From assembly GCF_018977255.1 (NCBI RefSeq), contig NW_024704742.1:29514001-29578000 (forward strand): 64,000 bases of DNA. The letters run 5' to 3'. Source of the stretch: Callorhinchus milii (lineage: Eukaryota). Position numbers and translations under genes: made by a program. Of the stretch, positions 22,701-54,293 are shown piece by piece (the stretch's first letter is position 1; each line of letters begins with the position of its first letter). The notes beneath the pieces were generated by a model that was given only the letters and a program-made list of their open reading frames with translations, ran no database searches and was not told the DNA's origin.

Positions 22701-22736
22701 GGAAAAAAGAACAGGCCAACTCACTGTTAGCCCCTG

Positions 22737-24050: not shown

Positions 24051-24144
24051 GGGACTTTACCAAGGACGGTGAACCATTGCAGGGTTGTGGTTTAGTTGCT
24101 GAGCTCCGGCCTCCTCTCTGTTGCTCGGCCCTGGTCTGATCTGC

Positions 24145-24686
24145 AGGGGACAGGGGGACAGGCAGTGAGGGAGGGGGACAGGCAGTGAGGGAGGGGGACA
24201 GGCAGTGAGGGAGGGAGGGGGACAGGCAGTGAGGGAGGGGGACAGGCAGTGAGGGAGGGAGGGAGGGAGGGAGGGGGACAGGCAGTGAGGGAGGGGGACA
24301 GGCAGTGAGGGAGGGGACGGGCAGTGAGGGAGGGAGGAGGGGAGGGAGGGGGACGGGCAGTGAGGGAGGGAGGGGGACAGGCAGTGAGGGAGGGAGGAGG
24401 GAGGAGGCAGTGACGCAGGGAGGTCAGGCAGGGGAGGCAGAGAGAGAGGCAAGTAGGCCAGACAGGCAGTGAGGGAGGGGGACAGGCAGACAGGGCAGGG
24501 AGAGGAGGCGGGGAGGGGGGGGGGACAGGCAGACAGGGCAGGGAGGGGAGGGCAGGGAGGGGGACAGGCGGGGAGGGGAGGGCAGGGAGGGGAGGGCAGG
24601 GAGGGGGACAGGCAGGGAGGGAGGGAGGGCAGGACAGGCAGGGAGGGGAGGGCAGGGAGGGGGGAGGCGGGGAGGGAGGGGGAGGG
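24145..24686 (+). repeat. G-rich minisatellite (GGGGGACAGGCAGTGAGGGA)n decaying into G-runs up to the RAB33B ATG
   Basis: 20-bp unit with 4-bp GGGA indels, directly visible. Confidence 0.9.
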
Positions 24687-25725
24687 ATGGCCTCCGCTCC
24701 GCTGCCGCTCGGGCCGCCCCCGCGGTGTCGGATCCTGAAGATGATAGTGATCGGGGACTCGGGAGTCGGGAAGACTTGTCTCACATTCCGCTTCTGCGCC
24801 GGAAAATTCCCCAACAAAACCGAGGCCACGATCGGGGTGGATTTCCGTGAGAAAACAGTGGAGATCGACGGCGAGAAAATCAAGGTATAGCGGGTCATGT
24901 CTGTACCTCACACTCACACACATATACACACACACATACATACACACACACATACATAAACACACACACATACATAAACACACACACATACATACACACA
25001 TACACACACACATACACACACACATACACATACATACATACACATACATACACACACACACATACATACACACACACACACATACATACATACATACATA
25101 CACACATACATACATACACACACATACATACACATACATACACACACACATATATATACATACATATACATACATACACACATACATACATACACACACA
25201 TACATATACATACATACACACATACATACATACACACACACATACATACATATACATACACACACACACATACACACACACACACATACATACACACACA
25301 CATATACATACACACATACATACACACATACATATACATACATACACACACACATACACACACACATACATACACACACACATATACATACACACACACA
25401 CATACACACACACATACACACACACATAAACACACATACATACACACACATACATACACACACACATACACACACACACATACACACACACACACATATA
25501 CAAACACACACACACATACATACACACACACATACATACACATACACACACGCACAAACACACATACATACACACACACACATATACATACACACATACA
25601 TACACACCCACATACACATACATACACACACATATACATATATGCACACATATATATACACACACATACACACACGTACATATATACACATATATGTACA
25701 CACACATACACACACACACATATAT

Positions 25726-25762
<37 letters not shown>

Positions 25763-28700
25763 ACACATACACATACATACACACTGGGTGCACACACACA
25801 TACACACACACATATATACATACACACACACATATATATATATACAAACACACACATATATACATATACACACACATACATACATATATATACACATACA
25901 CACACACATACATACACATATACATATATATATACACATACACATACATACACATACATACACACTGGGTACACACACACACATACTGGGTAGACACACA
26001 CATACATACACACTGGGGTACACATACACTGGGTACACATACACTGGGTACACACACACTGGGGTACAGCATACACACACACGCTGGGTACACACACACA
26101 CTGGAGTACACATACACACTGGGTACACACACACACGAACACTCTGGGGTACAGCACACACACACACTCACACACTTTGGGGTACAGCACACACACACAT
26201 ACACTTTGGGGTACAGCACACACAAACACACACACACTCTGGGGCACAGCACACACACACACACACACACACTGTACAGCACACACACACACTGTACAGC
26301 ACACACACACACTTTGGGATACAGTGCATGCACACACACTTTGGGAAACAGTGCACGCACACACCTTGGGATACAGTGCACGCGCACACCTTGGGATACA
26401 GTGCACGCGCACACACTTTGGGACACAGTGCACGCACACACACCTTGGGATACAGTGCACACGCACACACTTTGGGGTACGGCACACACGCACACACTTT
26501 GGGGACGTGCTTGTTTTAAAACGTTTGTGTTTTGAAGGATTCGTTCAACGGTTGTCTTGCACTTTTTTTTGTCACTGTTTCTTTGTATTTTGGTTATTGT
26601 GATTTTTTCTTTAAAAAAGGTTTTCAAACGTCGTCCGACCTGTAAAAGCTTATCGATTTGCCGCACTCCAATGACTGGGCGGCGGTGAGGTGTCCGATGG
26701 AATTACTTTGTCATAATAATAATCCTTGCATTTGATACAGCACCTTATCACATCTTCGAAACGTCTCAAAGGTGCTTCACAGAATATACTTCTGTGAATA
26801 TATTCACAGATTGCAAAGTGGATTGACTGCATATTTTGTGGGCGAAACGCGGCAGCGAATTGCGCACAGCAGTGTCCCACAAACAGTCGTGGATTGAGTG
26901 ATCGCATTTTTTTTGAGTGAATGACGATGAATAACGATCCTCACTTTTAATGTTGCGTCTTTCATGCCAGGACGCTTCAAAGCGCCTCATAGGCTTCACT
27001 GTAAAATGTAGTGACTGTGTTTTTCAGGGGAACACGGCAGCCAATTTGCACGCACCAATGTGACGTAAACAGCCAGGGACTGAGTGACCAATTTTATCTG
27101 GGGGACTGTTGATCAGGACATTGTGAGACACCACCAGCTTCTCTTTTCCAGCTGTGCTATGGGATGTTTAAAGTCCACCTGAACAGTACACAGCGTGAAG
27201 ACCTTTGAGATGTCCTCCCGATATGGAAGGCACTGTATCAAATATCAAATGCAATTATTGTTGTTATTATTATTATATGAAGCGAGGGCACAAAACTAGG
27301 AGCGTCTGAGAACCGTTGTATTGATGAAATGTCACTTGAGCGAAACCAGAAAATGATAGAGGGTTAAAGGTAGTTGAGGGGAAAAGAAATGTTCAGCACG
27401 AAAGGGCAAACCAAACATTTGTGAAGGCAGCTTCAGCGATGGAGGAGGTGTGGGAATCCCCGTTGAAATAGAGAGGCCCAGAGTGAGGATGGAAGAAGGA
27501 TTAAGAGTAGTGTCTTAGATGGTAAGAGATGGTAATCGTTGACGAGATTAATAAGAGACTTGTGGATCTATATCTGTCTGGAATTGGAAAAAATAACATT
27601 ATTACTGTCTCATTGAAGTTTACTCATAATAAAATCTCCTGATTTTAGTACAATTTTCCCGATAAGCTTTTGGTACAATCGTAATACTCGGATTTCGTAC
27701 AGCGCCTTTCAAGTCAGAGGGACATCTCAAAAAAAATCTTAACAGGCGTTACCGTAAAATGTAGTGGCTGTGTAAGTTGTAGGCGAATACAGCAGTCAAT
27801 TTGCACACAACAATATTGCACAAGTAGCCACAAAGTGAATGAGCGGTTTTATTTGGGGGATTGTGGACCAAGATAACGAGGAGAAAGAGGCACTTCTCTT
27901 TTTCAAATAGTGCCATGGGATCTTTAATGTCCACCTTTAACCGGCAGTCGGGCCTTGATTTAACATCTCATCCGAAGCATACAATCTGTCAATGCAGCAC
28001 CTCTGTCCCCAGCACTGCGTTGGAGCTTCCGCCGAGACTTTACCAGTTCAAATCCCTGACGTGGAGCTTGAACGCGCTACCATCTGACTCAGAGCTGAGA
28101 GTGCTAGCGACTGAGCCAGGCTGACGCATGCTGTTGGTAGGATTTTTGAACCTTACAGCACAGAAGGAGGCCATTAGCCCCACAGCCCTGCAAATGTTTC
28201 CTTTTCAGATAGATGAAGTCCAGTTTCCGTTTGAAAGCTGCTATCGAATCTATTTCCCCCAGGGTTTCAGGCAGTATATTGCTATTTGGCCCAACAATCA
28301 ACCTTTGGCTTTTGGTTTTGTTTAATCCTTCAGATTCAGCTGTGGGACACTGCAGGCCAGGAGCGTTTTCGGAAGAGCATGGTGCAGCATTACTACAGGA
28401 ATGTCCACGCTGTGGTCTTTGTTTACGACATAACCAACATGGCCACCTTCCAGAGCCTCCCGGCCTGGATAGAGGAATGCAAGCAGCACTCGCTCGGCGG
28501 AGAAATCCCGCGCATCCTGGTGGGGAACAAGTGCGATCTGAAGGATGCCACCCAGGTCAGAACAGACCTGGCGCAGAAGTTTGCGGATACCCACAGCATG
28601 CCGCTGTTCGAAACCTCGGCCAAGAACCCGGGCGACAATGATCACGTTGAGGCCATTTTCATGACCTTAGCCCACAAACTGAAGAACCACAAGCCCATGA

Positions 28701-28780
28701 TGCTCAGTCAGCCACTGCTAGACGAGAACAAGGTCCAACTGGATCCGGAGCCTAGCCCCGGGGTGGAGTGTTATTGTTGA
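24687..28780 (+). CDS. RAB33B: Ras-related protein Rab-33B-like GTPase (2 exons)
   Basis: Exon 1 24687-24884 ([14 protein letters not shown], ends EKIK|gt); exon 2 28334-28780 (ag|[44 protein letters not shown]-terminal CYC prenylation motif). Phase-0 intron. Confidence 0.95.
24908..25965 (+). repeat. Long degenerate (CA/TA)n microsatellite
   Basis: About 1 kb of CA/TA dinucleotides at the start of the RAB33B intron. Confidence 0.95.
25960..26507 (+). repeat. Minisatellite grown out of the CA tract (ACACTGGGTAC -> ACACTTTGGGATACAGTGCACGCAC)
   Basis: Tandem units whose core motif lengthens progressively from left to right. Confidence 0.85.
27700..28125 (-). mobile_element. Old Deu-domain SINE
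   Basis: gggatctttaatgtccacc...gggccttgatttaacatctcatccgaag core and ctgactcagag...actgagccaggctgac head end. Confidence 0.65.
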
Positions 28781-33593: not shown

Positions 33594-35273
33594 ATGGATG
33601 ATCGGGAGCAAAAGGGTATCAATCCCCGCAGTCAAAAAGGTGAGCTCGATGCAATCCAGGAGGCGAGTCCCGACGATGTTGGATTCAGATCTGCAATAAA
33701 TGATGAGTGGGCGATCTACAACGAGGATCCGGATAAATATCAATTCCTTTTTCAATCCCCCTGCTCCACAGCACCTGGTCTGAAGCCAACTTCTCTGCAC
33801 CGAGTGCAGGAAGCTTGGTCTGTAACGAAAGTGAAAGTATCGCGATACGATTCAGGGGCAAAAGGAACTTCATTACATCGATCAAAGTCCGATTTGAATT
33901 TCCTGCAAAGGGAGTTAACCCTCAATCTCTGTTATTTCTCCGGTGACATTGGAAACCTGGTGCAAGAGCTGCAGCCGAGCACAGAACCACTGGCCACGCT
34001 GTGCACTGACAGACAGTGCGGGGACAACGCACAGTGGATCACAGAGCTCGTACGTTACATACAGTCCTTGTCATGGGATCCGGGGAAACAGCACTCAATT
34101 CTGGTTAAAGTAGCAAAGGCTTTTATGCACAACAGTGACCCACATCTGCACTTCCACGAGAAGGTTTTCGTCCCCTCAATTCGTATGTATAAATACTGCA
34201 CTTTGTATAACTGTTTGCTGGAGATGGACAGAGAAGCTTTGGTACAGCTGGAGGCATCGGTGGAAGCAGCTCAAAATCTTGATGTGACTAAAGTGGATTT
34301 GGAGACTCTGGCTGAGCTACTCTGTGCTGATCTTTCCTGGAAACCTCTTGGTTACAGGCTCTTAGAACAACCGTCAACCTCCTCCTACATCGCCCTTTTC
34401 GACCATATCAAATGGCAAGAAAATTGGTGCAAAAGAGAATTTCTCCACGCTCTTCTCTTGTCAATCAAAACAAAACCAGATCAGGTGGAAACTTTCCACA
34501 ACTTGAGAGGAGACAAGATTTTCCTGCCCGCAGTCATCAACTCCAAGTGGGTAAAGAAACTAAAATGCCTGAAGTTACTGCTACACAAACATGTATTTAA
34601 AGAGGAAATCTCATTGAACAGAGTGATGTGGTGCAGTCCCACTGAGGCAGAGGTGTTTTTAGAGACACTGTCAGTCTTCGGATATCCACATATTGCCCAA
34701 GAGTTGGGTAAGTGCATGGGCAGCAGCAATGTTATCAGGTTCAGGGACGAGAAACCACCGAAACAGAAGACAAATACGAAAACATTCAGCAGCGCATATG
34801 TCACTGTCTTACCTGCAAATATCTCCTCTGAGAGTCGTCCACCCAAACTGCACTTACACACCAAACACTGGACACCCAACACTGCACGTGTAACTACAGC
34901 AACACGTTACTGTCATAGATATTGTAGGAAGCCCTCACTGCCTGACCCGTGGCTGTACCGAATGGCAGGAGCTCTGGCCTCTGAATGGACGGCAGTAGCC
35001 AGAGATTTTGGTTTCAGTGAGAGCGACATAGAGAAAACGGCAACTGATCCTTGGTACAACCACCAGCAGCGAATGTTCCACCTCCTGTACAGACTGTCAC
35101 ACGAGCAGCAGATGAGCTTCACAGAGCTGTGCTTCCTGCTGCTTTGTAAAGTCAGTGATTATAAATGTCACCGGCAAATACAGTGTATCATAGGAGCAGC
35201 ACTCAGTGCTGTTGAGCTGCAGGAAGACGTGGACTTATCTAGAAATGAGGGAGAGAACCTGTTCCAGAGGTAA
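33594..35273 (+). CDS. Copy A, 5' ORF (559 aa): variable N-terminus + death-fold region + death domain; stops just before the FIIND
   Basis: Kozak GCCATGG at 33594; uninterrupted ORF; DD-like LPDPWLYRMAGALASEWTAVARDFGFSESDIEK...QQRMFHLLYRL. TAA at 35271 where copy B has CAA. Could be a pseudogene. Confidence 0.6.
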   Translation: MDDREQKGINPRSQKGELDAIQEASPDDVGFRSAINDEWAIYNEDPDKYQFLFQSPCSTAPGLKPTSLHRVQEAWSVTKVKVSRYDSGAKGTSLHRSKSDLNFLQRELTLNLCYFSGDIGNLVQELQPSTEPLATLCTDRQCGDNAQWITELVRYIQSLSWDPGKQHSILVKVAKAFMHNSDPHLHFHEKVFVPSIRMYKYCTLYNCLLEMDREALVQLEASVEAAQNLDVTKVDLETLAELLCADLSWKPLGYRLLEQPSTSSYIALFDHIKWQENWCKREFLHALLLSIKTKPDQVETFHNLRGDKIFLPAVINSKWVKKLKCLKLLLHKHVFKEEISLNRVMWCSPTEAEVFLETLSVFGYPHIAQELGKCMGSSNVIRFRDEKPPKQKTNTKTFSSAYVTVLPANISSESRPPKLHLHTKHWTPNTARVTTATRYCHRYCRKPSLPDPWLYRMAGALASEWTAVARDFGFSESDIEKTATDPWYNHQQRMFHLLYRLSHEQQMSFTELCFLLLCKVSDYKCHRQIQCIIGAALSAVELQEDVDLSRNEGENLFQR

Positions 35274-37040
35274 CACATAAAGGTGCTGGAACATAAGACG
35301 CTTCGAGTGGTTTGTGGCCAGTGGAGTGAAGCCCCTGAGATGAGAGAGATCAGCCCGAAGGTGTTTGAAAGCTTCGTGGATCAGGTGTCCCTGGTTGGTC
35401 CTGTGTTTGATGTGCACACACAAACCAAAGGGACAAAGGTGATGGTGTTTCTTCCCACGTACACTCCGTGTGAAACTGAGCTGAGCCCCTCAGTTCTTGC
35501 AGAGAGTCTATTGACTCTTCTGACCATGAAATACCAAGATGTGGGGAATTGCTTGTGTAAGAAGTTAGAAGCAGTGCTAAGTGCAGAAGAGAAATCAAGA
35601 CTGTTTAAAGTCCTCCTACAGGAGGATTGTGAAGCTGCTGTGAAGCTGATCTTGTCAAAAGGGCAGAGAGCTCTTCAGCTGCTTTGTGAATACCTCAGGG
35701 CATCAGGCAGTGAGATGAGGTTGTGGCCGGCAAAGCTTCGCTCTCTGCTGGAAACATCACCCACCCAGGTCGGACACATCCAAGATGGAAACCTGGAGCT
35801 TGTGGTTCCACTCGCTGTGCTGGAAAGACACCTGTTGCTGTTCACAGAGTCCCTCTCTCCGCTAGCGGTCATAGAAAAGCTGCGAAGATTATTTACTCAG
35901 ACACGTGCTTACTGTTTGTTATACAAACCAGTGGGACGTCAGTACATTGACTGCAGAGTAACACTGAGGGTGTTTTTGATACCCAGGAGTGGCTCACTGG
36001 TGCAGGGACTGGATACAAAGCTGAAAGGTTATAAACGAGTGTTTATTTCAAATATCAGTATTAAAGGGAATGTTTGTTATAGACTACTCTTTAAGGACGT
36101 TACTTCTGACAATTCACTCCTTAGGGTCACTCCAAGAGATGGCAGTGAGTACAAGGAAGCACTGAGCCTTATGGATCCCATGACTAAGTATCTGATTGCT
36201 CTTAATATAAAGGACTGGGTCCAATGGCCTCTGGTGCTGCAGATTACACGAGACAAAAACTCTGTGATATTTGAGGAAACCATTGATGATGAAATGTTGC
36301 AGTTTGAAAATGGGGAATATTTCATTCTCAACCTCGATGGTAAGAAGCATTGTATCATGAGGATTCACCAAGAAATTAGTTACAAAGAATTCAGCCACAA
36401 ATTAAACACTGTGCTGCCGGAGAGAAAACTCTCTGTCTATTACAAACAAGATGGGATCCCTCTGCTGGTTAATAATGGACGTCCAAACGCTTCACAGAAT
36501 ATACTGTAAAGTGAATTGACTGTATATTTGTGGGCCAACGCGGCAGCCAATTGCGCGCAGCAACAAAGCGAGTGCTCTAACCACTGAGCTACAGGACTCC
36601 ACGATGATGAAAGCATCAAAATGATTCTGAGGGACCAATGCGGGAAAGATATTGTTCTGGAAGCTGAAGACATCATTGATGAGGTGATTACAGCAGGAAT
36701 GCAAGTGATGCCATTGGCCAGGTTACCTTCTCCAAATGAACCACTCAGCCGCCGGAGGCCATCTCCCACTGAACAGCATTTTGTGGTTCGACACAGGACA
36801 GCTTTAATTAAGAGGATCTCAGACATCAAAAGTCTTCTGGATGATCTGAGACATGAAAGTGTTATTAACGATAATGAATACCAGAGAATCAGAGGAGAAA
36901 ATATACGCAATGAACAAATCACACACACTGTAGATTACACTATTAACAAAGGGAAAAATGCAATGGATATATTTTATGAGAGTCTTTCCAAAAATGACCC
37001 GCACCTTGTTGAGGACTTGCAACTTAGGGAGATATCTTAA
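35274..37040 (+). pseudogene. Copy A, 3' part: FIIND - PB1-like - CARD, disconnected by an upstream stop and a SINE remnant
   Basis: Same frame as the 5' ORF and near-identical to copy B. SINE remnant at ~36477-36602 adds a TAA at 36507; CARD (QHFVVRHRTALIKRI...DPHLVEDL) ends at 37040. Confidence 0.75.
36477..36602 (-). mobile_element. Internally deleted SINE remnant inside the copy A PB1-like domain
   Basis: Antisense SINE core fused directly to SINE head; absent from copy B at LVNN|DES. Confidence 0.85.
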
Positions 37041-39100: not shown

Positions 39101-41278
39101 ATCTGTCTCCTACCCCCGCTCCTCCCCCTGGTACACCACCCACCTCCGCTCACTGAAAAGCCAGGTGCGGGCCGCTGAACGCACCTGTGTCAAATCTGGC
39201 CTAACGGTCCACCGACAAATCTGGCTGGACCTCCTCAAAATTTACCGCTCCACTCTAGCCTCGGCCAAGTCGTCCTTCTACTCCAGGATAATCCTGGAGG
39301 CGAAGAACAACCCCAGGCTACTGTTTTCCACCACAACCCGACTCCTCCGTCCCCCCCGCCACCCCGCGCAGGTCATCTCCTCCAACCTTCACTGCGAGGA
39401 GATGCTGGATTTCCTTGAATCCAAGATCAAGGGAATTCGCTCCGCGGTCACTTCCCCTCCAACATCCACCAACCCCCCACCCCCTCCTCCCACACTCCGA
39501 CTGCTACCCATCCTCCCCGACTCGTACCCGTTTCCCCACCCTCTGTCACCAAACTCATCCTATCCCTAAAACCAACCACCTGCTCCCTTGACCCCATCCC
39601 CACTCCACTCCTTATCTCCCAGCTCCACTTTCTTGCCCCACATATCACCGTCAACCTGTCCCTCTCCTCTGGCTCTGTCCCCATTCCCTTAAAAACTGCC
39701 ACCATCACGCCCACCCTGAAAAAACCCTCCCTTGATGCGTCGCAGCTATCAAGCTACCGGCCCATCTCCAACCTCCCCTTTCTCTCCAAGGTCCTGGAAA
39801 GAGTTGTCGCCTCCCAACTGCGCTCTTTCCTTTCCACCCATTCATTTTTCGAACCCCTTCAGTCAGGTTTCCGTGCTGCCCATAGCACAGAAACTGCCCT
39901 GGTCAAGGTCACCAATGATATCCTGACCATCTGTGACCAGGGCTCCCTCTGCCTCCTCGTCCTCCTCGACCTATCGGCAGCATTCGATACGGTCGACCAC
40001 GCTATCCTACTCCACCGCTTGTCCTCCCACCTCAACCTTCAAGGCACTGTCCTTGAGTGGTTTAGGTCGTACCTTTCTCACCGTCTTCACTTTGTCTCCA
40101 CGAATGGCTTCTCCTCCACCCCCCGCACTGTCTCATGTGGTGTCCCTCAGGGCTCTGTCCTCGGTCCCCTCCTCTTCACCCTCTATATGCTCCCCCTTGG
40201 TGACATCATCCGCAGACATGGGTTAACTTCCACATGTATGCGGATGACACCCAACTCTACCTTTCCTCCTCTACTCTCAACTCCACGACCACCGATGTCC
40301 TGACAGCCTGCCTGTCCGACATCGAGTCCTGGACGAGAGACAACTTTCTTCAGCTCAACGTGCGAAAAACCGAGGCCCTCCTGATTGGCTCACGTCAGCG
40401 CCTCCGCACCTCAGGCGCTGACACCATCAGCATCCAAGGCTGCACTCTCCACCTCTCAAAGCCAGTCAGGAACCTCGGCGTTTTGTTCGACCCTGAGCTG
40501 TCCTTTCTCCCTCACATCCGCACCACAACTGGCACCGCCTTCCATCACCTCCGGAACATCGCCAGACTACGGCACTACCTCACCCCTCACGCTGCTGAAA
40601 CCCTGGTCCACGCCTTTGTCACCTCAAGGCTGGACTATGGGAACTCTCTCCTCGCCGGCCTTCCCGCCACCTCCCTCCACAAGCTGCAGGTCATTCAGAA
40701 CTCTGCAGCTCGTGTACTGTCCCGCACCAGGCTTCGGGACCACATCACTCCCACCCTCGCTCGCCTCCACTGGCTCCCCATCCCCCAGAGGATTGATTTC
40801 AAGATCCTCATCCTCACCTACAAGGCCATTCACGGCCTTGCTCCCTCCTACCTCTCTGACCTACTATCCCCCTACCTACCTGCCCGTACCCTCCGTTCCT
40901 CCGGCTCCGGTCTGCTCCACGTCCCCCGCCCCAACCGCCCTACCATCGGTGGTCGGGCCTTCAGCCTCTCAGCCCCGAGGCTCTGGAACTCCATCCCCCA
41001 GTGCCTTCGCCGCCTCCTCCCTCTCCTCCTTCAAGGCCGGTCTCAAAACCTTTCTCTTTGACCGTGCCTTCAGCTCCCCTCTCGACTCTCTTCCCCCTCC
41101 TCGCTCCCTCCCTTCCCTCCCTCACCCTGACCATTTCCCCCTCCTCGCTCCCTCCCTTCCCTCCCCTCACCCTGACCATTTNCCCCCCTGCTCGGGTCCT
41201 GACCCAACTGTGCAGCGCCTTGGGACGTCCTCCTGACGTGAAAGGCGCTTTATAAATGGAATCTTGTTGTTGTTGTTG
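39101..41278 (+). mobile_element. L2 LINE, 5'-truncated young copy with RT domain
   Basis: [64 protein letters not shown]; few frameshifts; (TTG)n tail. Confidence 0.95.
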
Positions 41279-42196: not shown

Positions 42197-42601
42197 AAAC
42201 GTTGAGACATTCATTCATTTCAACTATTGCTACTTTCATACACACATATCTATCTCTTGGAGTGTCTGTGTATCGAGCAGCAGCTTTGTCTTACCAGAAA
42301 TTTCTCCCAACTAAGCACACACGGGACTCTTTACCCCAAACTCTTTGGACACAATGCAAATGTTCAAAATAGTTGAATCACAAAGCAATGAAATCCTATT
42401 TACAGATGGGATGATCTCTCTGTTGGAGGAAATGGAATGGCAGCTTGGAATCTCCCTCGGCAACTCTTCACGGACAAAGTGTTGATCATACACGTGTGTT
42501 GTTTTTTGTACCATCGAATTCCTGGCACACCAGGTCCCAGGCTTCCTGTTTCTCTAAAGTTCTGCCAAACGCGGAAGCCAAGTTACAGTCCAAGTCCAGC
42601 A

Positions 42602-43530
42602 ATGTTTGACGTGGAGAGGGATCAGGATGAAGAGTAGGAGACACCCGATTCCCAAATGAAGAGGAAGCGGGTCCACAAATCGTCCCGCGGCCGAGCGCTG
42701 CCTTTTCGGGAGCGGAGAGAAGTGGCAGATGCAGAAGCCGCTCAGGCCGGTGCCTCACACACTCTCAGACGGTTTGCTTCGCGACTGAGAAAGTGGATTC
42801 GGCGGCGACTGAACCTCAACAGCCCCGAAACACCAGTGGCCACGATCAGTGAGGGCCCCCCCGGCACAATAACAAATCTGTACCGTTTGCAACTTGAAGC
42901 TTCAGCTTCTATATCTGGATCTGAGTATAACATTGACAACACATCAGCTTCTGCATCTGCACCGGAGATCAGCAATGACTGAACAACAAAGATTGAGGAA
43001 GACTGTTACGAGCCAATATTAAGAGACTTCCTATTGGTCTCGGATTAGGAAACGCGCTGTGGTATCAGGACATTTAGCAGAAAAAAGTTCTTGCCAAAAG
43101 CCTTTATTGCCCACAGACAGTGTATGAGCCTCTCAACCTATTCGGGTGCTGACAGACAGCTGCTAATCTGCGTGAGGGACTGTCTCCGTGATCTGAAGGG
43201 TGACATGACTTTTCTTGTGCAACAGCTGGTGGGCGACCCAGAGCCGCCTCCCACTCTGTGCACTGACAGCCTGTGTGAACACAACACACAACTCATCAGT
43301 ACATTACAGACCTGCTGCGGTGAACAGGACTCACAGGGAAACCTGCTCCAACTGGCAAAACCTCCACTGTTACTGTTACTGTTGGGTAATAGAGGGCAAT
43401 TGCATGTTTTACGGAAGTGATTTGGCTGCGTTCAAGGACGTGTATAACTGTTTGCTGGAGATGGACACAGAGAAGCTCTGGTACAGCTGGAGGCATCGGT
43501 GGAAAGCAGCTGAAAATCTCGATGTGGCTT
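42602..43530 (+). pseudogene. Copy C: 5' fragment of the copy B-type gene
   Basis: Colinear with rc 48326-47400. Stops at 42635, 42980 and ~43046, indels near 43360-43420, homology ends after AAENLDV. Confidence 0.85.
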
Positions 43531-44290: not shown

Positions 44291-44766
44291 GTACATATAC
44301 ACAGATGCAGTAGAATCGATAGGGATTCCACTGGGAAGTGGGCTGACCCTCTATACAACTCCAACTATTTCAGTGTTACATCTTTCTTTTATGTATTTCT
44401 AACTCCACCTCCCTTGTCACAGAGATAGCCCCCACCTTTCGCAGGCTGCTTTGTACAGAGAGAGATATGGACAACTTCTGGGCAGCTTTCCACAGCCTGC
44501 TTTGTTTCTCAGCCTTGAGATACGCAGGTGTCTGAGGCTGTAGCCTTTTCTTTCTGTGGTCCATTCTTCTTGCATCTATCCTGAAGGTCCCGATTGCTCA
44601 TTATCTCATAGGAGTGAACATCTTCCCAGGAAAATATGAAATGTAATCAGAAGCTAACCTCAACCTGTCCAGCAAAGCTACTTTTAACCTCCACTTCTTC
44701 TGGAACATTCGGTTGCTGCTATCAATACACTAATGTATCGTGAAGTGATAGTCAGTATATTTCAAC
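44291..44766 (+). repeat. Direct repeat, copy 1 (copy B stop codon + 3' flank)
   Basis: Highly similar to 48995-49468; weaker similarity also between ~43660-43720 and ~48790-48850. Confidence 0.85.
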
Positions 44767-47727
44767 AAGAGTCCCCTGAGACATCTCCCTACATTTCAAG
44801 TCATCAACAAGGTATGGGTCATTGTTGCAAAGACTTTTAAAAAACAAATCCATTGCATTTTCCCCTTTCTTAATCGTGTAATCTAACATGCAGGTGATTT
44901 GTTCATTGCGAATATTTTCTCCTCTGATTCTCTGGTATTCATTATCGTTAATAATACTTTCATGTCTCAGATCATCCAGAAGACTTTTGATGTCTGAGAT
45001 CCTCTTAATTAAAGCTGTCCTGTGTCGAACCACAAAATGCTGTTCAGTGGGAGATGGCCTCCGGCAGCTGAGTGGTTCATTTAAAGAAGGTAAACTGGCC
45101 GATTGCACTACTTGGGATTCTGCTTTAATTATCTCATCAATGATGTCTTCACCTTCCAGCATAATGTTTCCCTTCTCTTGTTGCTGCACAATTAGGCTGA
45201 TACTTTCGTCATTATTAACCAGCAGAGGGATCCCATCTTGTTTGTAATAGACAGAGAGTTTTCTCTCCGGCAGCACAGTGTTTAATTTGTGGCTGAATTC
45301 TCTGTAACTAATTTCTTGGTGAATCCTCATGATACAATGATTCTTACCATCAAGGTTGAGAATGAAATATTCCGCATTTTCAAACTGCAATATTTCATCA
45401 TCAATGGTTTCCTCAAATATCACAGAGTTTTTGTCTCGTGTAATCTGCAGCACCAGAGGCCATTGGACCCAGTCCTTTATATTAAGAGCAATCAGATACT
45501 TAGTCATGGGATCCATAAGGCTCAGTGCTTCCTTGTACTCACTGCCATCTCTTGGAGTGACCCTAAGGAGTGAATTGTCAGAAGTAACGTCCTTAAAGAG
45601 TAGTCTATAACAAACATTCCCTTTAATACTGATATTTGAAATAAACACTCGTTTATAACCTTTCAGCTTTGTATCCAGTCCCTGCACCAGTGAGCCACTC
45701 CTGGGTATCAAAAACACCCTCAGTGTTACTCTGCAGTCAATGTACTGACGTCCCACTGGTTTGTATAACAAACAGTAAGCACGTGTCTGAGTAAATAATC
45801 TTCGCAGCTTTTCTATGACCGCTAGCGGAGAGAGGGACTCTGTGAACAGCAACAGGTGTCTTTCCAGCACAGCGAGTGGAACCACAAGCTCCAGGTTTCC
45901 ATCTTGGATGTGTCCGACCTGGGTGGGTGATGTTTCCAGCAGAGAGCGAAGCTTTGCCGGCCACGACCTCATCTCACTGCCTGATGCCCTGAGGTATTCA
46001 CAAAGCAGCTGAAGAGCTCTCTGCCCTTTTGACAAGATCAGCTTCACAGCAGCTTCACAATCCTCCTGTAGGAGGACTTTAAACAGTCTTGATTTCTCTT
46101 CTGCACTTAGCACTGCTTCTAACTTCTTACACAAGCAATTCCCCACATCTTGGTATTTCATGGTCAGAAGAGTCAATAGACTCTCTGCAAGAACTGAGGG
46201 GCTCAGCTCAGTTTCACACGGAGTGTACGTGGGAAGAAACACCATCACCTTTGTCCCTTTGGTTTGTGTGTGCACATCAAACACAGGACCAACCAGGGAC
46301 ACCTGATCCACGAAGCTTTCAAACACCTTCGGGCTGATCTCTCTCATCTCAGGGGCTTCACTCCACTGGCCACAAACCACTCGAAGCGTCTTATGTTCCA
46401 GCACCTTTATGTGTTGCCTCTGGAACAGGTTCTCTCCCTCATTTCTAGATAAGTCCACGTCTTCCTGCAGCTCAACAGCACTGAGTGCTGCTCCTATGAT
46501 ACACTGTATTTGCCGGTGACATTTATAATCACTGACTTTACAAAGCAGCAGGAAGCACAGCTCTGTGAAGCTCATCTGCTGCTCGTGTGTCAGTCTGTAC
46601 AGGAGGTGGAACATTCGCTGCTGGTGGTTGTACCAAGGATCAGTTGCCGTTTTCTCTATGTCGCTCTCACTGAAACCAAAATCTCTGGCTACTGCCGTCC
46701 ATTCAGAGGCCAGAGCTCCTGCCATTCGGTACAGCCACGGGTCAGGCAGTGAGGGCTTCCTACAATATCTATGACAGTAACGTGTTGCTGTAGTTACACG
46801 TGCAGTGTTGGGTGTCCAGTGTTTGGTGTGTAAGTGCAGTTTGGGTGGACGACTCTCAGAGGAGATATTTGCAGGTAAGACAGTGACATATGAGCTGTTG
46901 TCTGTTTTCGTACTTGTCTTCTGTTTCAGTGGTTTCTCGTCCCTGAACCTGATAACATTGCTGCTGCCCATGCACTTACCCAACTCTTGGGCAATATGTG
47001 GATATCCGAAGACTGACAGTGTCTCTAAAAACACCTCTGCCTCAGTGGGACTGCACCACATCACTCTGTTCAATGAGATTTCCTCTTTAAATACATGTTT
47101 GTGTAGCAGTAACTTCAGGCATTTTAGTTTCTTTGCCCACTTGGAGTTGATGACTGCGGGCAGGAAAATCTTGTCTCCTCTCAAGTTGTGGAAAGTTTCC
47201 ACCTGATCTGGTTTTGTTTTGATTGACAAGAGAAGAGCGTGGAGAAATTCTCTTTTGCACCAATTTTCTTGCCGTTTGATATGGTCGAAAAGGGCGATGT
47301 AGGAGGAGATTGACGGTTGTTCTAAGAGCCTGTAACCAAGAGGTTTCCAGGAAAGATCAGCACAGAGTAGCTCAGCCAGAGTCTCCAAATCCACTTTAGT
47401 CACATCAAGATTTTCAGCCGCTTCCACCGAAGTCTCCAGCTGTACCAAAGCTTCTCTGTCCATCTCCAGCAAACAGTTATACACATCCTTGAACGCAGCC
47501 ATATCACTTCCGTAAAACAAGTAATTGAACTCTGTTGGGTCCAAGTGGTTGTTGCTGCTTTGTACGAGAGCTTTTGCCAGTTGGAGCAGGTTTCCCTGTG
47601 AGTCCTGTTCACCGCAGCAGGTCTGTAATGTACTGATGAGTTGTGTGTTGTGTTCACACAGGCTGTCAGTGCACAGAGTGGGAGGCGGCTCTGGGTCGCC
47701 CACCAGTTGTTGCACAAGAAAAGTCAT
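44752..47727 (-). CDS. Copy B: intronless NLRP1/CARD8-like protein, death-fold/DD - FIIND - PB1-like - CARD (991 aa from first in-frame ATG)
   Basis: Open for about 1000 codons. DD ~46750-46485. FIIND ~46400-45400 (VGPVFDV, VFLP, QVGH at 45912, ESL|SPLAV with Ser at 45831, CLLYK, VTLRVFLIP). PB1-like ~45370-45145. CARD ~45045-44795. The ancestral start is probably the Kozak ATG at 48326, now cut off by a frameshift and a TAG. Confidence 0.8.
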   Translation of the reverse strand: MTFLVQQLVGDPEPPPTLCTDSLCEHNTQLISTLQTCCGEQDSQGNLLQLAKALVQSSNNHLDPTEFNYLFYGSDMAAFKDVYNCLLEMDREALVQLETSVEAAENLDVTKVDLETLAELLCADLSWKPLGYRLLEQPSISSYIALFDHIKRQENWCKREFLHALLLSIKTKPDQVETFHNLRGDKIFLPAVINSKWAKKLKCLKLLLHKHVFKEEISLNRVMWCSPTEAEVFLETLSVFGYPHIAQELGKCMGSSNVIRFRDEKPLKQKTSTKTDNSSYVTVLPANISSESRPPKLHLHTKHWTPNTARVTTATRYCHRYCRKPSLPDPWLYRMAGALASEWTAVARDFGFSESDIEKTATDPWYNHQQRMFHLLYRLTHEQQMSFTELCFLLLCKVSDYKCHRQIQCIIGAALSAVELQEDVDLSRNEGENLFQRQHIKVLEHKTLRVVCGQWSEAPEMREISPKVFESFVDQVSLVGPVFDVHTQTKGTKVMVFLPTYTPCETELSPSVLAESLLTLLTMKYQDVGNCLCKKLEAVLSAEEKSRLFKVLLQEDCEAAVKLILSKGQRALQLLCEYLRASGSEMRSWPAKLRSLLETSPTQVGHIQDGNLELVVPLAVLERHLLLFTESLSPLAVIEKLRRLFTQTRAYCLLYKPVGRQYIDCRVTLRVFLIPRSGSLVQGLDTKLKGYKRVFISNISIKGNVCYRLLFKDVTSDNSLLRVTPRDGSEYKEALSLMDPMTKYLIALNIKDWVQWPLVLQITRDKNSVIFEETIDDEILQFENAEYFILNLDGKNHCIMRIHQEISYREFSHKLNTVLPERKLSVYYKQDGIPLLVNNDESISLIVQQQEKGNIMLEGEDIIDEIIKAESQVVQSASLPSLNEPLSCRRPSPTEQHFVVRHRTALIKRISDIKSLLDDLRHESIINDNEYQRIRGENIRNEQITCMLDYTIKKGENAMDLFFKSLCNNDPYLVDDLKCREMSQGTLVEIY

Positions 47728-48326
47728 GTCACCCTTCAGATCACGGAGACAGTCCCTCACGCAGATTAGCAGCTATCTGTCTGCACCCGAATAGGTTGAG
47801 AGGCTCCTACACTGTCTGTGGGCAATAAAGGCTTTTGGCAAGAACTTTTTTCTGCTAAATGTCCTGATACCACAGCGCGTTTCCTGATCCGAGACCAATA
47901 GGAAGTCTCTTAATATTGGCTCGTAACAGTCTTCCCCACTCTCCATTATACAGTCATTGCTGATCTCCAGTGCAGATGCAGAAGCTGATGTGTTATCAAT
48001 GTTATACCCAGATTCAAATACAGAAGCTGATTCTTCAGGTTGCAAACAGCAATTTGTTATTGTGCCGGGGGGCCCTTACTGATCGTGGCCGCTGGTGTCT
48101 CGGGGCTGTTGAGGTTCAGTCGCCGCCGAATCCACTTTCTCAGTCGCAGAAAAGCCCGTCTGAGAGTGTGTGAGGCACCGGCCTGAGCGGCTTCTGCATC
48201 TGCCACTTCTCTCCGCTCCCGAAAAGGCAGGGCTCGGCCGCGGGATGATTTGTGGCCCCGTTTCCTCTTCACTTGGGAATCGGTTGTCTCTTGCTCTTTA
48301 TCACGATCCCTCTCCACGTCAGCCAT
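47728..48326 (-). pseudogene. Disrupted ancestral N-terminal extension of copy B
   Basis: GCCATGG at 48326 (MADVERDRDKEQ...). C6 run at 48067-48072 where copy C has C7; in-frame TAG at 47773-47775 where copy C has CAG. Repairing both gives one 1191-aa ORF. Confidence 0.7.
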
Positions 48327-48994
48327 GGCAGGACTTGGACTGTAACTTGGCTTCCGCGATTGCCAGAACTTTACAGAAACAGGAAGGGCTGGAACCTGGT
48401 GGGGAAGATCTCGTTGCTGATGTAACGATGAGGTAAAATGTCAGCAGTAATAAAACTTTGGGGAAAGCCTTGAATTGACAAAACAATAAGCCAGGGAATG
48501 GACCTCAACATACAGGGCAGAGATCAGCTCCTGGAAATCCTCAGGGACAATTGATTCTGTAACACAAAACATAATAGGGACTGGTGCCCGGTAACCCTCG
48601 GACACAACCAATCCTATATAAAACATACACAGCAGAGATCACAGAACTATCACACAGAATCACAGAGAGTGGCTCCTGTAAACTCAACAGAAAGAATCGG
48701 CTCTTAGCCCAGCATTTCACTCGTGCTTGCATAACCTGACTTCCGCATTTCAAATGGACCAACCACTACAACTGTTATTTCCTCTCTGCCTAATAAACAG
48801 AACCAAAAACATATTAACCACTCCTCCTCCACTTTCACTTTTAATTTTGAACTCATTTTAATTTTTTTACCTCACCCCTCAGGCCGCTGAACCTCTTGTT
48901 CATGCCTTCAGCACCAAACTCTGTGAACCCATCTCCCCTATTCTTGCCCAACTCCATTGACTCCCTATCCTTCAGAGGATCCAGTTCAAGATCC

Positions 48995-49468
48995 TACATA
49001 TACATGGATGCAATAGAATCGATAGCGATTCCATTGGGAAGTGGGCTGACCCTCTACACAACTCCAACTATTTCAAAGTTATATCTTTCTTTTATATGTT
49101 TTTAACTCCATCTCCCCTTGACACAGAGATAGCCCCCACCCTTCACAGGCTGCTTTGTACAGAGAGAGATAGGGACAACTTCTGGGCAGCCTTCCACAGC
49201 CTGCTTTGTTTCTCAACCTTTGTGATAGGCAGGTGTCTGAGGCTGTAGCCTTTTCTTTCTGTGGTCCACTGTTCTTACATCTATGCTCAAGGACCTGATT
49301 CCTCATTATCTCAGAGGAGTGAACATCTTCCCAGGAAAATATGAAATGTAATCAGAAGCTAACCTCAACCTATCCAGCAAAGCACTTTTAACCATTTAAC
49401 TATCAACCTTCTTGAACATTTGGTTGCTCCTATCAATATATCCCGAGGTAACAGTCAGTATATTTCAA
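48995..49468 (+). repeat. Direct repeat, copy 2 (upstream of copy B)
   Basis: Matches 44291-44766, including agtcagtatatttcaa (the antisense EIY-stop of copy B). Confidence 0.85.
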
Positions 49469-52645: not shown

Positions 52646-54293
52646 GAATCCAAAATCAAGGGAATCCGCTCCGCGGTCACTCCCCCTCCAACTCCCACCC
52701 ACCCCCCACACTCCGACTCCTACTCATCCTCCCCTGCACACCTTCGTACCCGTTTCCCCATCCTCTGTCACCAAACTCATCCTGTCCCTGAAACCCACCA
52801 CCTGCTCCCTTGACCCCATCCCCACTCCATCTCTCAGCTCCACCTCCTTGCCCCACATATCACAGACATCATCAACATGTTCCTCTCCTCTGGCTCTGTT
52901 CCCATTCCCCTAAAAACTGCCATCATCACTCCCACTTTGAAAAATCCCTCCCTTGATGCGTCGCAGCTATCAAGCTACCGGCCCATCTCCAACCTCCCCT
53001 TCCTGTCCAAGGTCCTTGAAAGAGTTGTCGCCTCCCAGCTGCGCTCTTTCCTCTCCACCCATTCATTATTCGAACCCCTTCAGTCGGGTTTCCGTGCTGC
53101 CCATAGCACAGAAACTGCCCTGGTCAAGGTCACCAATGACATCCTGACCATCTGTGACCAGGGCTCCCTCTGCCTCCTCGTCCTCCTCGACCTATCGGCA
53201 GCATTCGATACGGTCGACCACGCTATCCTCCTCCACCGCTTGTCCTCCCACCTCAACCTTCAAGGCCCTGTCCTTGAATGGTTTAGGTCGTACCTCTCCC
53301 ACCGTCTTCATTTTGTTTCCACAAATGGCTTTTCCTCCACCCCCAGCACTGTCTCATGCGGTGTCCCTCAGGTCTCTGTCCTCGGTCCCCTCCTCTTCAC
53401 CCTCTATATGCTCCCCCTTGGTGACATCATCCGCAGACATGGGGTTAACTTCCACATGTATGCGGATGACACCCAACTCTACCTTTCCTCCTCTACCCTC
53501 AACTCCACGACCACCGATGTCCTGACAGCCTGCCTGTCCGACATCGAGTCCTGGACGAGAGACAACTTTCTTCAGCTCAACGTGCGCAAAACTGAGGCCC
53601 TCCTGATTGGCTCACGTCAGCGCCTCCGCACCTCAGGCGCTGACAGCATCAGCATCCAAGGCTGCACTCTCCACCTCTCAAAGCCATTAGGAACCTCGGG
53701 GTTTTGTTCGACCCTGAGCTGTCCTTTCTCCCTCATATCCGCGCCACAACTGGCACCGCCTTCCATCACCTCCGGAACATCGCCAGACTACGGCACTACC
53801 TCACCCCTCACGCTGCTGAAACTCTGGTCCACGCCTTTATCACCTCAAGGCTGGACTATGGGAACTCTCTCCTCGCCGGCCTTCCCGCCACCTCCCTCCA
53901 CAAGCTGCAGGTCATTCAGAACTCGTGTACTGTCCCGCACCAGGCTTCGTGGCCACATCACTCCCACCCTCGCTCGCCTCCACTGGCTCCCCATCCCCCA
54001 GAGGATCGAATTCAAGATACTCATCCTCGCCTACAAGGCCATTCACGGCCTTGCTCCCTCCTACCTCTCCGACCTACTATCCCCTATTTACCTGCCCGTA
54101 TCCTCCGTTCCTCTGGCTCCGGTCTGCTCCACAACCCCCTTCCCTACACCCTCCCCTCACCCTCCCTTCCCTCCCCTCACCCTGACCATTTATCCCCTGC
54201 TCAGGTCCTGACCCAACTCTCCAGTGCTTTGGGACATCCTCCCGACGTGAAAGGCGCTCTATAAATGGAGTCTCGTTGTTGTTGTTGTTGTTG
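52646..54293 (+). mobile_element. L2 LINE young copy with RT domain, inserted into an older antisense L2 (52395-52645 and 54295-54695)
   Basis: 444-aa ORF with MYADDTQLY; near-identical to 39420-41278; the flanks join into one antisense L2 fragment. Confidence 0.93.

What the first reader, a model, noticed from the sequence alone, without database searches (positions are those of the whole stretch)
44752..48326. Candidate new inflammasome sensor: intronless DD - FIIND - PB1 - CARD protein with no NACHT/LRR
Seen: a ~1000-codon ORF whose segment ~46400-45400 aligns by eye, motif by motif, with the human NLRP1 FIIND (VGPVFDV~AGPLLDI; VFLP~VHLP; QVGH~QMAH; LLLFTESL|SPLAV~IVLENPSF|SPLGV; CLLYK~VLLYH; VTLRVFLIP~VTFHLYLIP). 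The His (codon 45912-45910) is exactly 27 residues before the Ser (45831-45829). Established: NLRP1 H1186/S1213 and CARD8 H270/S297 have this spacing and autoproteolyse to release a UPA-CARD fragment; the NLRP1 neo-N-terminal Ser-Pro engages DPP9. Here the predicted 359-aa fragment starts S-P-L and ends in an ASC/NLRP1-type CARD (QHFVVRHRTALIKRI...DPYLVDDL). Upstream there is a death domain and further helical regions instead of NACHT-LRR. Inference: a functional-degradation-type sensor with an architecture I do not recognise from NLRP1, CARD8, PIDD1 or UNC5.
Basis: partly seen in the sequence, partly recalled or inferred. Interest (0 to 1): 0.92.

Follow-up and report, generated by a model that had tools for sequence, protein, structure and literature searches.

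The report
Divergent FIIND-CARD gene of a chimaera
A cartilaginous-fish relative of the NLRP1/CARD8 inflammasome sensors that carries an extra death domain, a helical insert and a PB1-like domain; it is real and unusual, but whether it cuts itself, or is even fully active in this genome, is unproven.

Summary
The ORF is real: 991 codons, minus strand, ATG 47727 to stop 44752. It is not open up to 48326; a TAG at 47773-47775 and a one-base shift near 48070 break an older N-terminal extension. Domain calls hold up. The CARD is CARD8/ASC-like (Pfam 4.6e-19; Z 16.6). The UPA matches rat NLRP1 FIIND (Z 14.9). The cleavage-site/UPA stretch matches canonical FIIND by profile (98.1%, E 6.8e-14). The death domain and PB1 are weak by Pfam but clear by fold. 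The ZU5 half is split by a ~95-residue helical insert and is not modelled with confidence. H606 and S633 are 27 residues apart, as claimed. Three residues that CARD8 or NLRP1 need for self-cleavage are missing: P1 is Leu not Phe, and the second His and the Glu are absent. Some shark relatives also lack the His. The window matches Callorhinchus milii. It also holds an inverted, broken second copy. A multi-exon paralogue lies on another contig, so this copy looks like a retrocopy. Relatives were found only in sharks. One shark relative is already listed as NLRP1-like in a paper's supplement. Verdict: a new variant of a known kind, of moderate interest.

The parts
44752..47727 (-). Copy 1: 991-codon single-exon ORF plus stop, the finding's gene. 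A public 903-aa model starts at M89 (47463).
   Evidence: P0160 is 100% identical to 47463..44755
46768..47727 (-). N-terminal helical region, residues 1-320. No family assigned. Residues 90-185 are modelled with confidence as helices.
   Evidence: pLDDT 82-92 for 90-185; no Pfam hit; Atlas gives only DED/Death leads at 0.80
46474..46752 (-). Death domain, residues about 326-418
   Evidence: Pfam Death E 7.5e-4, 20.0 bits, under the 22.6 cut-off; 7 of 9 family members hit Death; model pLDDT 83-91; ankyrin-G DD Z 10.6, rmsd 2.5, 90 aligned
46216..46410 (-). Presumed N-terminal half of the ZU5, residues about 440-504, including the GPVFDV...VFLP stretch
   Evidence: MAFFT aligns it with canonical GPLFD...LPH; hhalign is weak, P 0.0017 over 19 columns; pLDDT under 40
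45931..46215 (-). Helical insert of about 95 residues (505-599) inside the ZU5. Present in all family members and absent from canonical FIIND.
   Evidence: six helices at pLDDT 61-82; weak likeness to PYD bundles, Z about 6
45832..45930 (-). C-terminal ZU5 strands, residues 600-632. H606 is codon 45910-45912, H624 is codon 45856-45858, and P1 is L632.
   Evidence: Pfam FIIND 599-641, E 0.003; hhalign; residue table
45826..45831 (-). S633-P634: the candidate nucleophile Ser and the following Pro, at the putative L632|S633 cleavage site
   Evidence: Ser and Pro are identical in 12 of 12 family rows; the C10 paralogue has Ser-Ile
45385..45831 (-). UPA subdomain, residues 633-781
   Evidence: rat NLRP1 FIIND chain B: Foldseek E 3.4e-6 and VIA Z 14.9, rmsd 2.5, 129 aligned
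45139..45381 (-). PB1-like beta-grasp domain, residues 783-863, between UPA and CARD. Absent from canonical FIIND-CARD proteins.
   Evidence: Pfam PB1 E 0.019, under the cut-off; MEKK3 PB1 Z 12.0, rmsd 1.8, 79 aligned; it is an insertion in the hhalign alignment
44779..45045 (-). CARD, residues 895-983
   Evidence: Pfam CARD 4.6e-19; best PDB sequence hits are CARD8, NLRP1 and ASC; CARD8 CARD Z 16.6, rmsd 0.7, 33% identity
47728..48326 (-). Remnant of the ancestral N-terminal extension. ATG at 48326, one-base shift in a homopolymer run near 48066-48073, TAG at 47773-47775.
   Evidence: shark proteins align through this stretch; contigs of two runs carry one extra base at 48066 or 48072
33597..37040 (+). 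Copy 2: an inverted paralogue. Its core is 99.1% identical to copy 1. It is broken by a TAA at 35271-35273 and by a 129-base tRNA-like SINE piece at 36477-36605. It is the source of the 'ASC-like' models P0010 and P0011.
42528..43529 (+). Partial third copy of the 5' end, 90.7% identical to 47398-48401. It holds stops and then breaks off.

Best explanation
Identity (very likely, about 0.95). Copy 1 encodes a member of a small family related to the FIIND-CARD proteins NLRP1 and CARD8. I found the family only in sharks and a chimaera. Its order of parts is: helical N-terminal region, death domain, a ZU5 split by a helical insert of about 95 residues, UPA, a PB1-like domain, and a CARD8/ASC-type CARD. 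There is no NACHT or LRR. In this genome it is a single-exon, retrocopy-like gene, one of an inverted pair whose other member is broken. Mechanism (inferred, about 0.45). It works like CARD8. The N-terminal part (helical region, death domain, ZU5) holds the UPA-PB1-CARD part inactive. The chain cuts itself between L632 and S633. Loss or degradation of the N-terminal piece frees the 359-residue S-P-L... fragment. That fragment oligomerises through UPA, and perhaps PB1, and its CARD nucleates ASC or caspase-1 CARD filaments. Shown here: the domains, the homology, and the conserved Ser, His and Ser-Pro. Inferred: cleavage, release, partners and expression of a full protein.
For: The family and its homology to FIIND are well supported. 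The A1 profile against 12 canonical FIIND-CARD proteins gives hhalign 99.66%, E 2.3e-25. Residues 598-785 alone give 98.1%, E 6.8e-14. Pfam FIIND hits 9 of 9 members, best E 1.5e-6. UPA, PB1, CARD and death-domain folds are matched. In the tree the family forms one clade apart from canonical FIIND-CARD proteins, SH-aLRT 100. At the cleavage site, Ser is present in 12 of 12 family rows, against 64 of 65 canonical proteins. The His 27 residues upstream is present here and in 8 of 12 rows. The second His (H624) and the S-x-S-P motif are present in 12 of 12 rows. Leu at P1 occurs in 7 of 65 canonical FIINDs. The gene looks alive: a 991-codon ORF is intact despite about 60% divergence from all relatives. 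A public 903-aa model matches it at 100%. A separate 192-aa database entry (UniRef V9LC33) matches copy 1 at 191 of 192 residues but copy 2 at only 62.6%. From recall, not from any call, that accession series comes from cDNA.
Against: P1 is Leu, not Phe. CARD8 F296H is severely defective in cleavage, NLRP1 F1212A is cleavage-deficient, and non-cleaving UNC5b has Leu at this position. The equivalent of CARD8 H252, described as crucial, is His in 64 of 65 canonical proteins but Thr, Ser or Lys in this family. The E279 column holds Val. Shark group B has Gln at the His and His at P1 yet keeps the gene, so the family's function need not depend on cleavage. AlphaFold2 does not fold the ZU5 with confidence. 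The ancestral N-terminus is cut off by a TAG. dN/dS between the two copies is near 1: 0.96 in the PB1-end plus CARD stretch, and 3 synonymous against 18 non-synonymous changes in the core. I obtained no direct proof of transcription.
Confidence: 0.45

Rival explanations
1. It is a non-cleaving scaffold or adaptor. The ZU5-UPA unit stays in one piece, as in UNC5 and ankyrins, and acts as an autoinhibitory or oligomerising module. The protein would link death-domain partners at its N-terminal side to CARD partners at its C-terminal end. This resembles a DD-plus-CARD adaptor such as RAIDD (recalled, not tested). It would open by binding rather than by cleavage and degradation.
For: P1 Phe and the H252 and E279 equivalents are missing. 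UNC5b has Leu at the P1 position, and F296H stops CARD8 cleavage. Shark group B carries exactly His at P1 and Gln at the catalytic His, yet is conserved. The best death-domain fold match is to the ankyrin-G DD, from a ZU5-UPA-DD protein (Z 10.6).
Against: The Ser, the His at a spacing of 27 and the S-x-S-P motif are kept in the chimaera and in shark group A. Ser-Pro follows the site as in NLRP1 and CARD8. Leu at P1 is found in 7 of 65 otherwise canonical FIINDs.
Confidence: 0.35
2. Copy 1 is a recently disabled or decaying gene, a retro-pseudogene in the making. The long ORF would be a leftover and no functional protein would be made.
For: The ancestral N-terminal extension of about 190 codons is broken by a TAG and, in this assembly, by a frame shift. 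The neighbouring copy 2 is clearly broken by a TAA and a SINE piece. dN/dS between the copies is about 1. Further fragments with stops lie on contig C2.
Against: 991 codons are open, with all family-invariant residues kept. The dN/dS excess may lie on the broken copy 2 branch. The frame shift is absent from contigs of two other runs. A copy-1-specific database protein differs from the assembly by one residue, which suggests an independent and probably transcript-derived sequence. A public annotation treats copy 1 as coding.
Confidence: 0.2

Closest known systems
CARD8 (human)
   Same: It has FIIND followed by a C-terminal CARD, with no NACHT or LRR. Its CARD is the best sequence and fold match (33% identity, Z 16.6). 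It shares the Ser nucleophile, the His 27 residues upstream and Ser-Pro after the site.
   Different: CARD8 has a short disordered N-terminus. This protein has about 440 residues of helical region plus a death domain, a 95-residue insert in the ZU5 and a PB1-like domain before the CARD. It has Leu for the P1 Phe and lacks the H252 and E279 equivalents.
NLRP1
   Same: The UPA fold matches rat NLRP1 FIIND (Z 14.9) and human NLRP1 in the DPP9 complex (Z 12.5-12.7). The CARD is of the same type.
   Different: There is no PYD, NACHT or LRR. Extra domains are present, as listed for CARD8.
Canonical fish-type FIIND-CARD proteins with other N-terminal partners (PYD, CARD arrays, AIG1 GTPase, NACHT-LRR)
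   Same: They show that FIIND-CARD is a cassette joined to many N-terminal modules. 21 of 24 proteins scanned carry Pfam FIIND over its cut-off. The chimaera genome also holds canonical FIIND exons on contigs C8 and C11.
   Different: All of those pass Pfam's FIIND and UPA-FIIND cut-offs and have an unsplit ZU5 and no PB1. This family forms a separate clade (SH-aLRT 100).
PIDD1, UNC5 and ankyrin ZU5-UPA-DD proteins
   Same: They combine ZU5-UPA with a death domain. The best death-domain fold hits include ankyrin-G (Z 10.6), PIDD (Z 8.3) and UNC5H2 (Z 6.8). The UPA also matches ankyrin-B and UNC5b.
   Different: There the death domain follows the UPA. Here it precedes the ZU5 and a CARD ends the protein. 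By sequence, the cleavage region is FIIND-like.
Shark 'uncharacterized protein' genes, e.g. LOC121291735 of the great white shark, and chimaera LOC103179628
   Same: They belong to the same family and are collinear over nearly the whole length at 35-40% identity. [quoted passage not shown]
   Different: LOC103179628 is multi-exon, with at least 10 exon matches over about 10 kb, and groups with shark group B. The window gene has no introns and is a separate lineage.

Membership tests
FIIND (ZU5-UPA) superfamily | Significant profile match to FIIND around the ZU5/UPA junction | tested here: met
   hhalign of residues 598-785 against 12 canonical FIIND-CARD proteins: 98.1%, E 6.8e-14. Pfam FIIND hits 9 of 9 members, best 1.5e-6. 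The window protein itself scores 17.7 bits, under Pfam's 25.8 cut-off.
FIIND (ZU5-UPA) superfamily | UPA beta-sandwich fold | tested here: met
   7crv_B Z 14.9, rmsd 2.5, 129 aligned; Foldseek E 3.4e-6
FIIND (ZU5-UPA) superfamily | Complete ZU5 beta-sandwich | tested here: inconclusive
   Residues 416-507 and 604-632 have pLDDT under about 57 in both models. The N-terminal half matches only weakly. The domain is split by a 95-residue insert.
Self-cleaving FIIND (NLRP1/CARD8 type) | Nucleophile Ser at the ZU5/UPA junction | tested here: met
   S633. Ser is present in 12 of 12 family rows and 64 of 65 canonical proteins.
Self-cleaving FIIND (NLRP1/CARD8 type) | Phe at P1 (CARD8 F296, NLRP1 F1212) | tested here: not met
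   L632. The family has Leu, Cys or His. Canonical proteins have Phe in 57, Leu in 7 and Tyr in 1 of 65. F296H and F1212A are cleavage-deficient.
Self-cleaving FIIND (NLRP1/CARD8 type) | His 27 residues before the Ser (CARD8 H270) | tested here: met
   H606. His is present in 8 of 12 family rows and Gln in 4. Canonical proteins have His in 62 of 65.
Self-cleaving FIIND (NLRP1/CARD8 type) | His of the LPH motif (CARD8 H252) | tested here: not met
   By MAFFT, LP is followed by Thr here and by Ser or Lys in the sharks. Canonical proteins have His in 64 of 65. H252 is crucial in CARD8.
Self-cleaving FIIND (NLRP1/CARD8 type) | Glu nine residues after the His (CARD8 E279) | tested here: not met
   The aligned column holds Val; a Glu (E613) lies two residues earlier. 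Canonical proteins have Glu in 46 of 65.
Self-cleaving FIIND (NLRP1/CARD8 type) | Observed autoproteolysis, DPP8/9 binding, and release by N-terminal degradation | not testable with these tools
   Needs protein expression and mutants.
NLRP1 (NLR family) | NACHT and LRR domains upstream of the FIIND | tested here: not met
   No Pfam NACHT or LRR hit in the protein. No long ORF upstream other than LINE reverse transcriptase. None of the 96 NACHT matches in the genome lies in the window.
CARD | Pfam CARD over its cut-off and a six-helix CARD fold | tested here: met
   68.7 bits against a 23.9 cut-off; Z 16.6, rmsd 0.7 to the CARD8 CARD
PB1 domain | PB1 beta-grasp fold and profile match | tested here: inconclusive
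   The fold is met: MEKK3, MAP2K5, PKC-iota and NBR1 PB1 domains give Z 11-12. Pfam PB1 gives only 15.4 bits against a 23.6 cut-off and hits 2 of 9 members. The acidic OPCA and basic-Lys motifs are not clearly present by eye.
Death domain | Death-domain profile match and six-helix fold | tested here: inconclusive
   Pfam Death gives 20.0 bits against a 22.6 cut-off, covering profile positions 4-83 of 86, and hits 7 of 9 members. The best fold hits are death domains (Z 10.6 down to 8), but helical bundles need Z of about 13 for certainty.
Processed retrocopy | Lacks the introns of a multi-exon relative | tested here: met
   One ORF here, against at least 10 exon matches in the C10 paralogue.
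Processed retrocopy | Poly(A) tail, target-site duplications, identifiable parent gene | tested here: not met
   No A-run follows the stop. The parent is not identified: the tree gives an unresolved three-way split. The exon structure of shark group A genes could not be seen.

The most novel reading that the evidence does not exclude
Cartilaginous fishes have a distinct class of FIIND-CARD guard. In it, a death domain and a novel helical region serve as bait. A death-fold-like bundle is inserted into the ZU5. A PB1 polymerisation module sits between UPA and CARD, so the self-cleaved S-P-L... fragment would assemble by a UPA-PB1-CARD mechanism not seen in NLRP1 or CARD8. The family may also be a link between the ZU5-UPA-DD proteins (PIDD, UNC5, ankyrin) and the inflammasome FIIND-CARD proteins.
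Probability: 0.25. Interest if true: 0.75.

Novelty: new variant of a known kind. Interest (0 to 1): 0.5.

Why it matters
NLRP1 and CARD8 are the only well-studied sensors that work by self-cleavage and functional degradation. How old that mechanism is, and how its parts can be rearranged, remain open questions. This family shows the FIIND-CARD cassette in the oldest jawed-vertebrate lineage in an unusual setting: a death domain in front, a domain inserted into the ZU5, and a PB1-like module before the CARD. Its natural variants at the cleavage site (Leu, Cys or His at P1; His or Gln at the catalytic position) offer a ready-made series for testing what self-cleavage really requires. If it does not cleave, it would be a FIIND-CARD protein that signals in another way.

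Tried and rejected
RNA evidence. The run search listed no RNA holder. Four runs could be laid only as contigs of uncertain kind. They show neither transcription, nor strand, nor ends. Parts without cover (47497-47810 in three of the four runs) prove nothing, and the TAG at 47773-47775 was covered by no contig.

PDB sequence search. The search with the family profile returned 46 rows, all through the CARD. No FIIND or death-domain chain appeared at E up to 1.

Structure prediction. The full-length AlphaFold2 model was poor (mean pLDDT 55.7). A second model of residues 320-780 with 38 rows (mean pLDDT 66.9) still left the ZU5 unfolded. The cleavage-site geometry could therefore not be examined.

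ESM Atlas. For residues 1-320 it gave only DED/Death clusters at 0.80, below the level that counts.

Other regions. hhalign of the N-terminal region, death domain, insert and PB1 against canonical FIIND-CARD proteins found nothing, as expected.

Retrocopy marks. No poly(A) run follows the stop.

Earlier findings of this scan. Two look-ups returned nothing.

Literature. There were 0 papers for FIIND + 'cartilaginous fish' + CARD, for FIIND + Callorhinchus, for FIIND + 'PB1 domain', and for four accession or locus names. PMC11760013 was searched for terms and gave nothing useful.

Not used. The complex predictor, because no partner sequence (DPP9, ASC, caspase-1 of this species) was at hand. The third homologue search, because the exhaustive representative search had no length limit and showed no longer fused form.

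Full report
WHAT IS THERE

On the minus strand an ORF runs from 47772 to 44755 (1006 codons, stop to stop). Its first ATG is at 47727 and its stop at 44752-44754, giving 991 residues. That stretch is not open in this assembly. It is separated from the ORF by a TAG at 47773-47775 and by a one-base shift in a homopolymer run near 48066-48073.

Shark relatives code straight through the corresponding region. A partial duplicate at 42528-43529 has CAG where copy 1 has TAG, and one more base in the run. The upstream stretch is therefore a broken remnant of an ancestral N-terminal extension of about 190 codons. Contigs of two public runs carry one extra base at 48066 or 48072, so the frame shift may be an assembly error or a polymorphism. 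The TAG was not covered by any contig.

WHOSE GENOME, AND THE LOCUS

Database proteins named for Callorhinchus milii match the window exactly.
- A 903-aa model is 100% identical to 47463..44755. It is copy 1 from Met89.
- A 192-aa entry (UniRef V9LC33, named ASC-like) matches the C-terminus of copy 1 at 191 of 192 residues, but copy 2 at only 62.6%.

The window holds a second copy on the plus strand (33597-37040).
- Its core is 99.1% identical in DNA to copy 1 over 2274 bases. The flanks are only about 89% identical, and the first 81 codons are far apart (dS 1.17). This is a mosaic best explained by gene conversion between old duplicates.
- Copy 2 is broken by a TAA at 35271-35273 and by a 129-base tRNA-like SINE piece at 36477-36605.
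- The older 'ASC-like' models P0010 and P0011 are its downstream part.

LINE reverse-transcriptase ORFs lie between and beside the copies.

THE FAMILY

Word-seeded searches of 5.8 billion proteins found 9 and then 10 relatives. All are 'uncharacterized' proteins of sharks, plus the chimaera's own models. The sharks are Carcharodon, Cetorhinus, Scyliorhinus (two species), Heterodontus, Stegostoma and Mustelus.

An exhaustive profile search of 1.84 billion cluster representatives gave 652 hits at E up to 0.001. Only four representatives are full family members. Two more are fragments. The rest match through the CARD.

The sharks have two paralogue groups. A multi-exon chimaera gene on contig C10 (LOC103179628, 1035 aa, at least 10 exon matches over about 10 kb) groups with shark group B (SH-aLRT 100). 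Copy 1, shark group A and that pair form an unresolved three-way split. The whole family is one clade apart from canonical FIIND-CARD proteins.

Copy 1 thus lacks all the introns of its paralogue, which is the mark of a retrocopy. No poly(A) tail is left and the parent gene is not identified.

DOMAINS

CARD (895-983).
- Pfam E 4.6e-19.
- The best solved relatives by sequence are CARD8, NLRP1 and ASC.
- Fold match to the CARD8 CARD: Z 16.6, rmsd 0.7, 33% identity.

UPA (633-781).
- Rat NLRP1 FIIND chain B: Foldseek E 3.4e-6 and VIA Z 14.9, rmsd 2.5, 129 aligned.
- It also matches human NLRP1 and CARD8 in their DPP9 complexes, ankyrin-B and UNC5b.

ZU5/UPA junction.
- Pfam FIIND is under its cut-off for this protein (17.7 bits against 25.8) but hits 9 of 9 members, best 1.5e-6.
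- The family profile picked out a separate match to its positions 620-780 in 24 non-family proteins of the 157 held.
- Of 24 proteins then scanned, 21 carry Pfam FIIND far over the cut-off. Their N-terminal partners are PYD, CARD arrays, AIG1 or NACHT-LRR.
- Profile against profile: 99.66%, E 2.3e-25 for the whole. Without the CARD, residues 598-785 give 98.1%, E 6.8e-14.

N-terminal half of the ZU5.
- It is aligned by MAFFT (GPVFDV...VFLP with GPLFD...LPH).
- It is only weakly supported: P 0.0017 over 19 columns.
- It is not folded with confidence in either model.

Helical insert (505-599). It lies between the two ZU5 halves, is present in all family members and is absent from canonical proteins. 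It has a weak likeness to PYD bundles (Z about 6).

PB1-like domain (783-863).
- Pfam E 0.019, under the cut-off.
- The fold is clear: MEKK3, MAP2K5, PKC-iota and NBR1 PB1 domains give Z 11-12.
- It is an insertion relative to canonical FIIND-CARD proteins.

Death domain (326-418).
- Pfam E 7.5e-4, 20.0 bits against a 22.6 cut-off, covering almost the full profile length.
- 7 of 9 members hit it.
- It is confidently modelled.
- The best fold matches are all death domains, led by ankyrin-G (Z 10.6) and including PIDD (Z 8.3).

Residues 1-320 are helical and unassigned. None of the 96 NACHT matches in the genome lies in the window.

WILL IT CUT ITSELF?

D'Osualdo et al. 2011 (PMC3210808; I read sections 7 and 8) showed the following for CARD8:
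- S297A abolishes cleavage.
- F296H is severely defective.
- H252 and H270 are crucial.
- E279A reduces cleavage.
- Non-cleaving UNC5b has Leu where CARD8 has F296 (passage).

The review PMC7483925 (passages only) lists NLRP1 F1212A and S1213A as cleavage-deficient.

I aligned 65 canonical FIINDs from the hit list and 12 family rows to one profile.
- Nucleophile Ser: 64 of 65 canonical; 12 of 12 family.
- His at -27: 62 of 65 canonical. In the family, 8 His (including this gene) and 4 Gln, all in shark group B.
- P1: Phe 57, Leu 7, Tyr 1 in canonical. In the family, Leu (chimaera), Cys (group A), His (group B).
- H252 equivalent: His in 64 of 65 canonical. The family rows did not align there. 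By MAFFT they have Thr, Ser or Lys.
- E279 column: Glu in 46 of 65 canonical. In the family, Val, Leu or Phe.
- Residue after the Ser: Pro in 21 of 65 canonical and in 12 of 12 family rows. The C10 gene has Ile there.

However, three experimentally important positions are not canonical. One branch of the family carries the very substitutions that stop CARD8 cleavage, yet has kept the gene. I put self-cleavage of this protein at about 45%.

IS IT ALIVE?

For:
- The ORF is open over 991 codons at about 60% divergence from every relative.
- All family-invariant residues are kept.
- A public coding annotation exists, and a copy-1-specific database protein differs from the assembly by one residue.

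Against:
- The N-terminal extension is cut off.
- dN/dS between the copies is near 1, though that may reflect the broken copy 2.
- I obtained no direct proof of RNA.

WHAT IS KNOWN

No paper in the searchable library couples FIIND with cartilaginous fish, Callorhinchus or a PB1 domain, or names the accessions.

One paper (PMC11258412; passages and one supplementary sheet row seen) states that CARD8- and NLRP1-like proteins occur in all vertebrate clades examined except lamprey. [quoted passage not shown]

The family has thus been noticed but not described. The N-terminal death domain, the split ZU5, the PB1-like module, the cleavage-site variants and the retrocopy pair in the chimaera are not in print as far as these searches reach. 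Supplements of other papers were not examined.

VERDICT

This is a real and unusual member of a known kind, the FIIND-CARD proteins. The exact gene here may be N-terminally truncated. Interest is moderate.

Noticed in passing
G000 contig C10:16531698-16541919 (loci L011, L012): A multi-exon paralogue (LOC103179628, 1035 aa) of the same family. It is the orthologue of shark group B. Its junction reads Cys-Ser-Ile, and it has the His at -27.
   Followed up: yes
G000 contig C2:63246449-63247098 (locus L006): Fragments matching residues 16-230 of the family's N-terminal region, with stops. Probably a decayed further copy.
   Followed up: no
G000 contigs C8:9753171-9778948 and C11:17321839-17323471: Canonical FIIND exons over Pfam's cut-off, at three places on C8 and one on C11. 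The chimaera therefore also has ordinary FIIND genes.
   Followed up: no
window 39419-41058 (+) and 52814-54208 (+): LINE-type reverse-transcriptase ORFs (Pfam RVT_1, E 1.1e-25 and 4.2e-33), between and upstream of the two gene copies.
   Followed up: partly
window 28235-28777 (+): An open frame with a strong Ras/Rab-type small GTPase match (Pfam Ras, E 8e-32, profile positions 49-161). Probably an exon or retrocopy of a Rab-like gene.
   Followed up: partly
window 22600-26700: A long block of simple repeats, G+C-rich (0.64) and then TG/CA-type. It gives spurious long ORFs in all frames.
   Followed up: no
window 44292-44765 and 48995-49468: A 483-base direct repeat (87.6% identical) just after the stop of copy 1 and again about 670 bases upstream of the old ATG. 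Contig depth at 44357-44670 is 10- to 60-fold above the neighbours, so part of it is a dispersed repeat.
   Followed up: partly
window 12043-12924 (-): A 294-codon open frame with no Pfam match at E up to 0.001. Not examined further.
   Followed up: no
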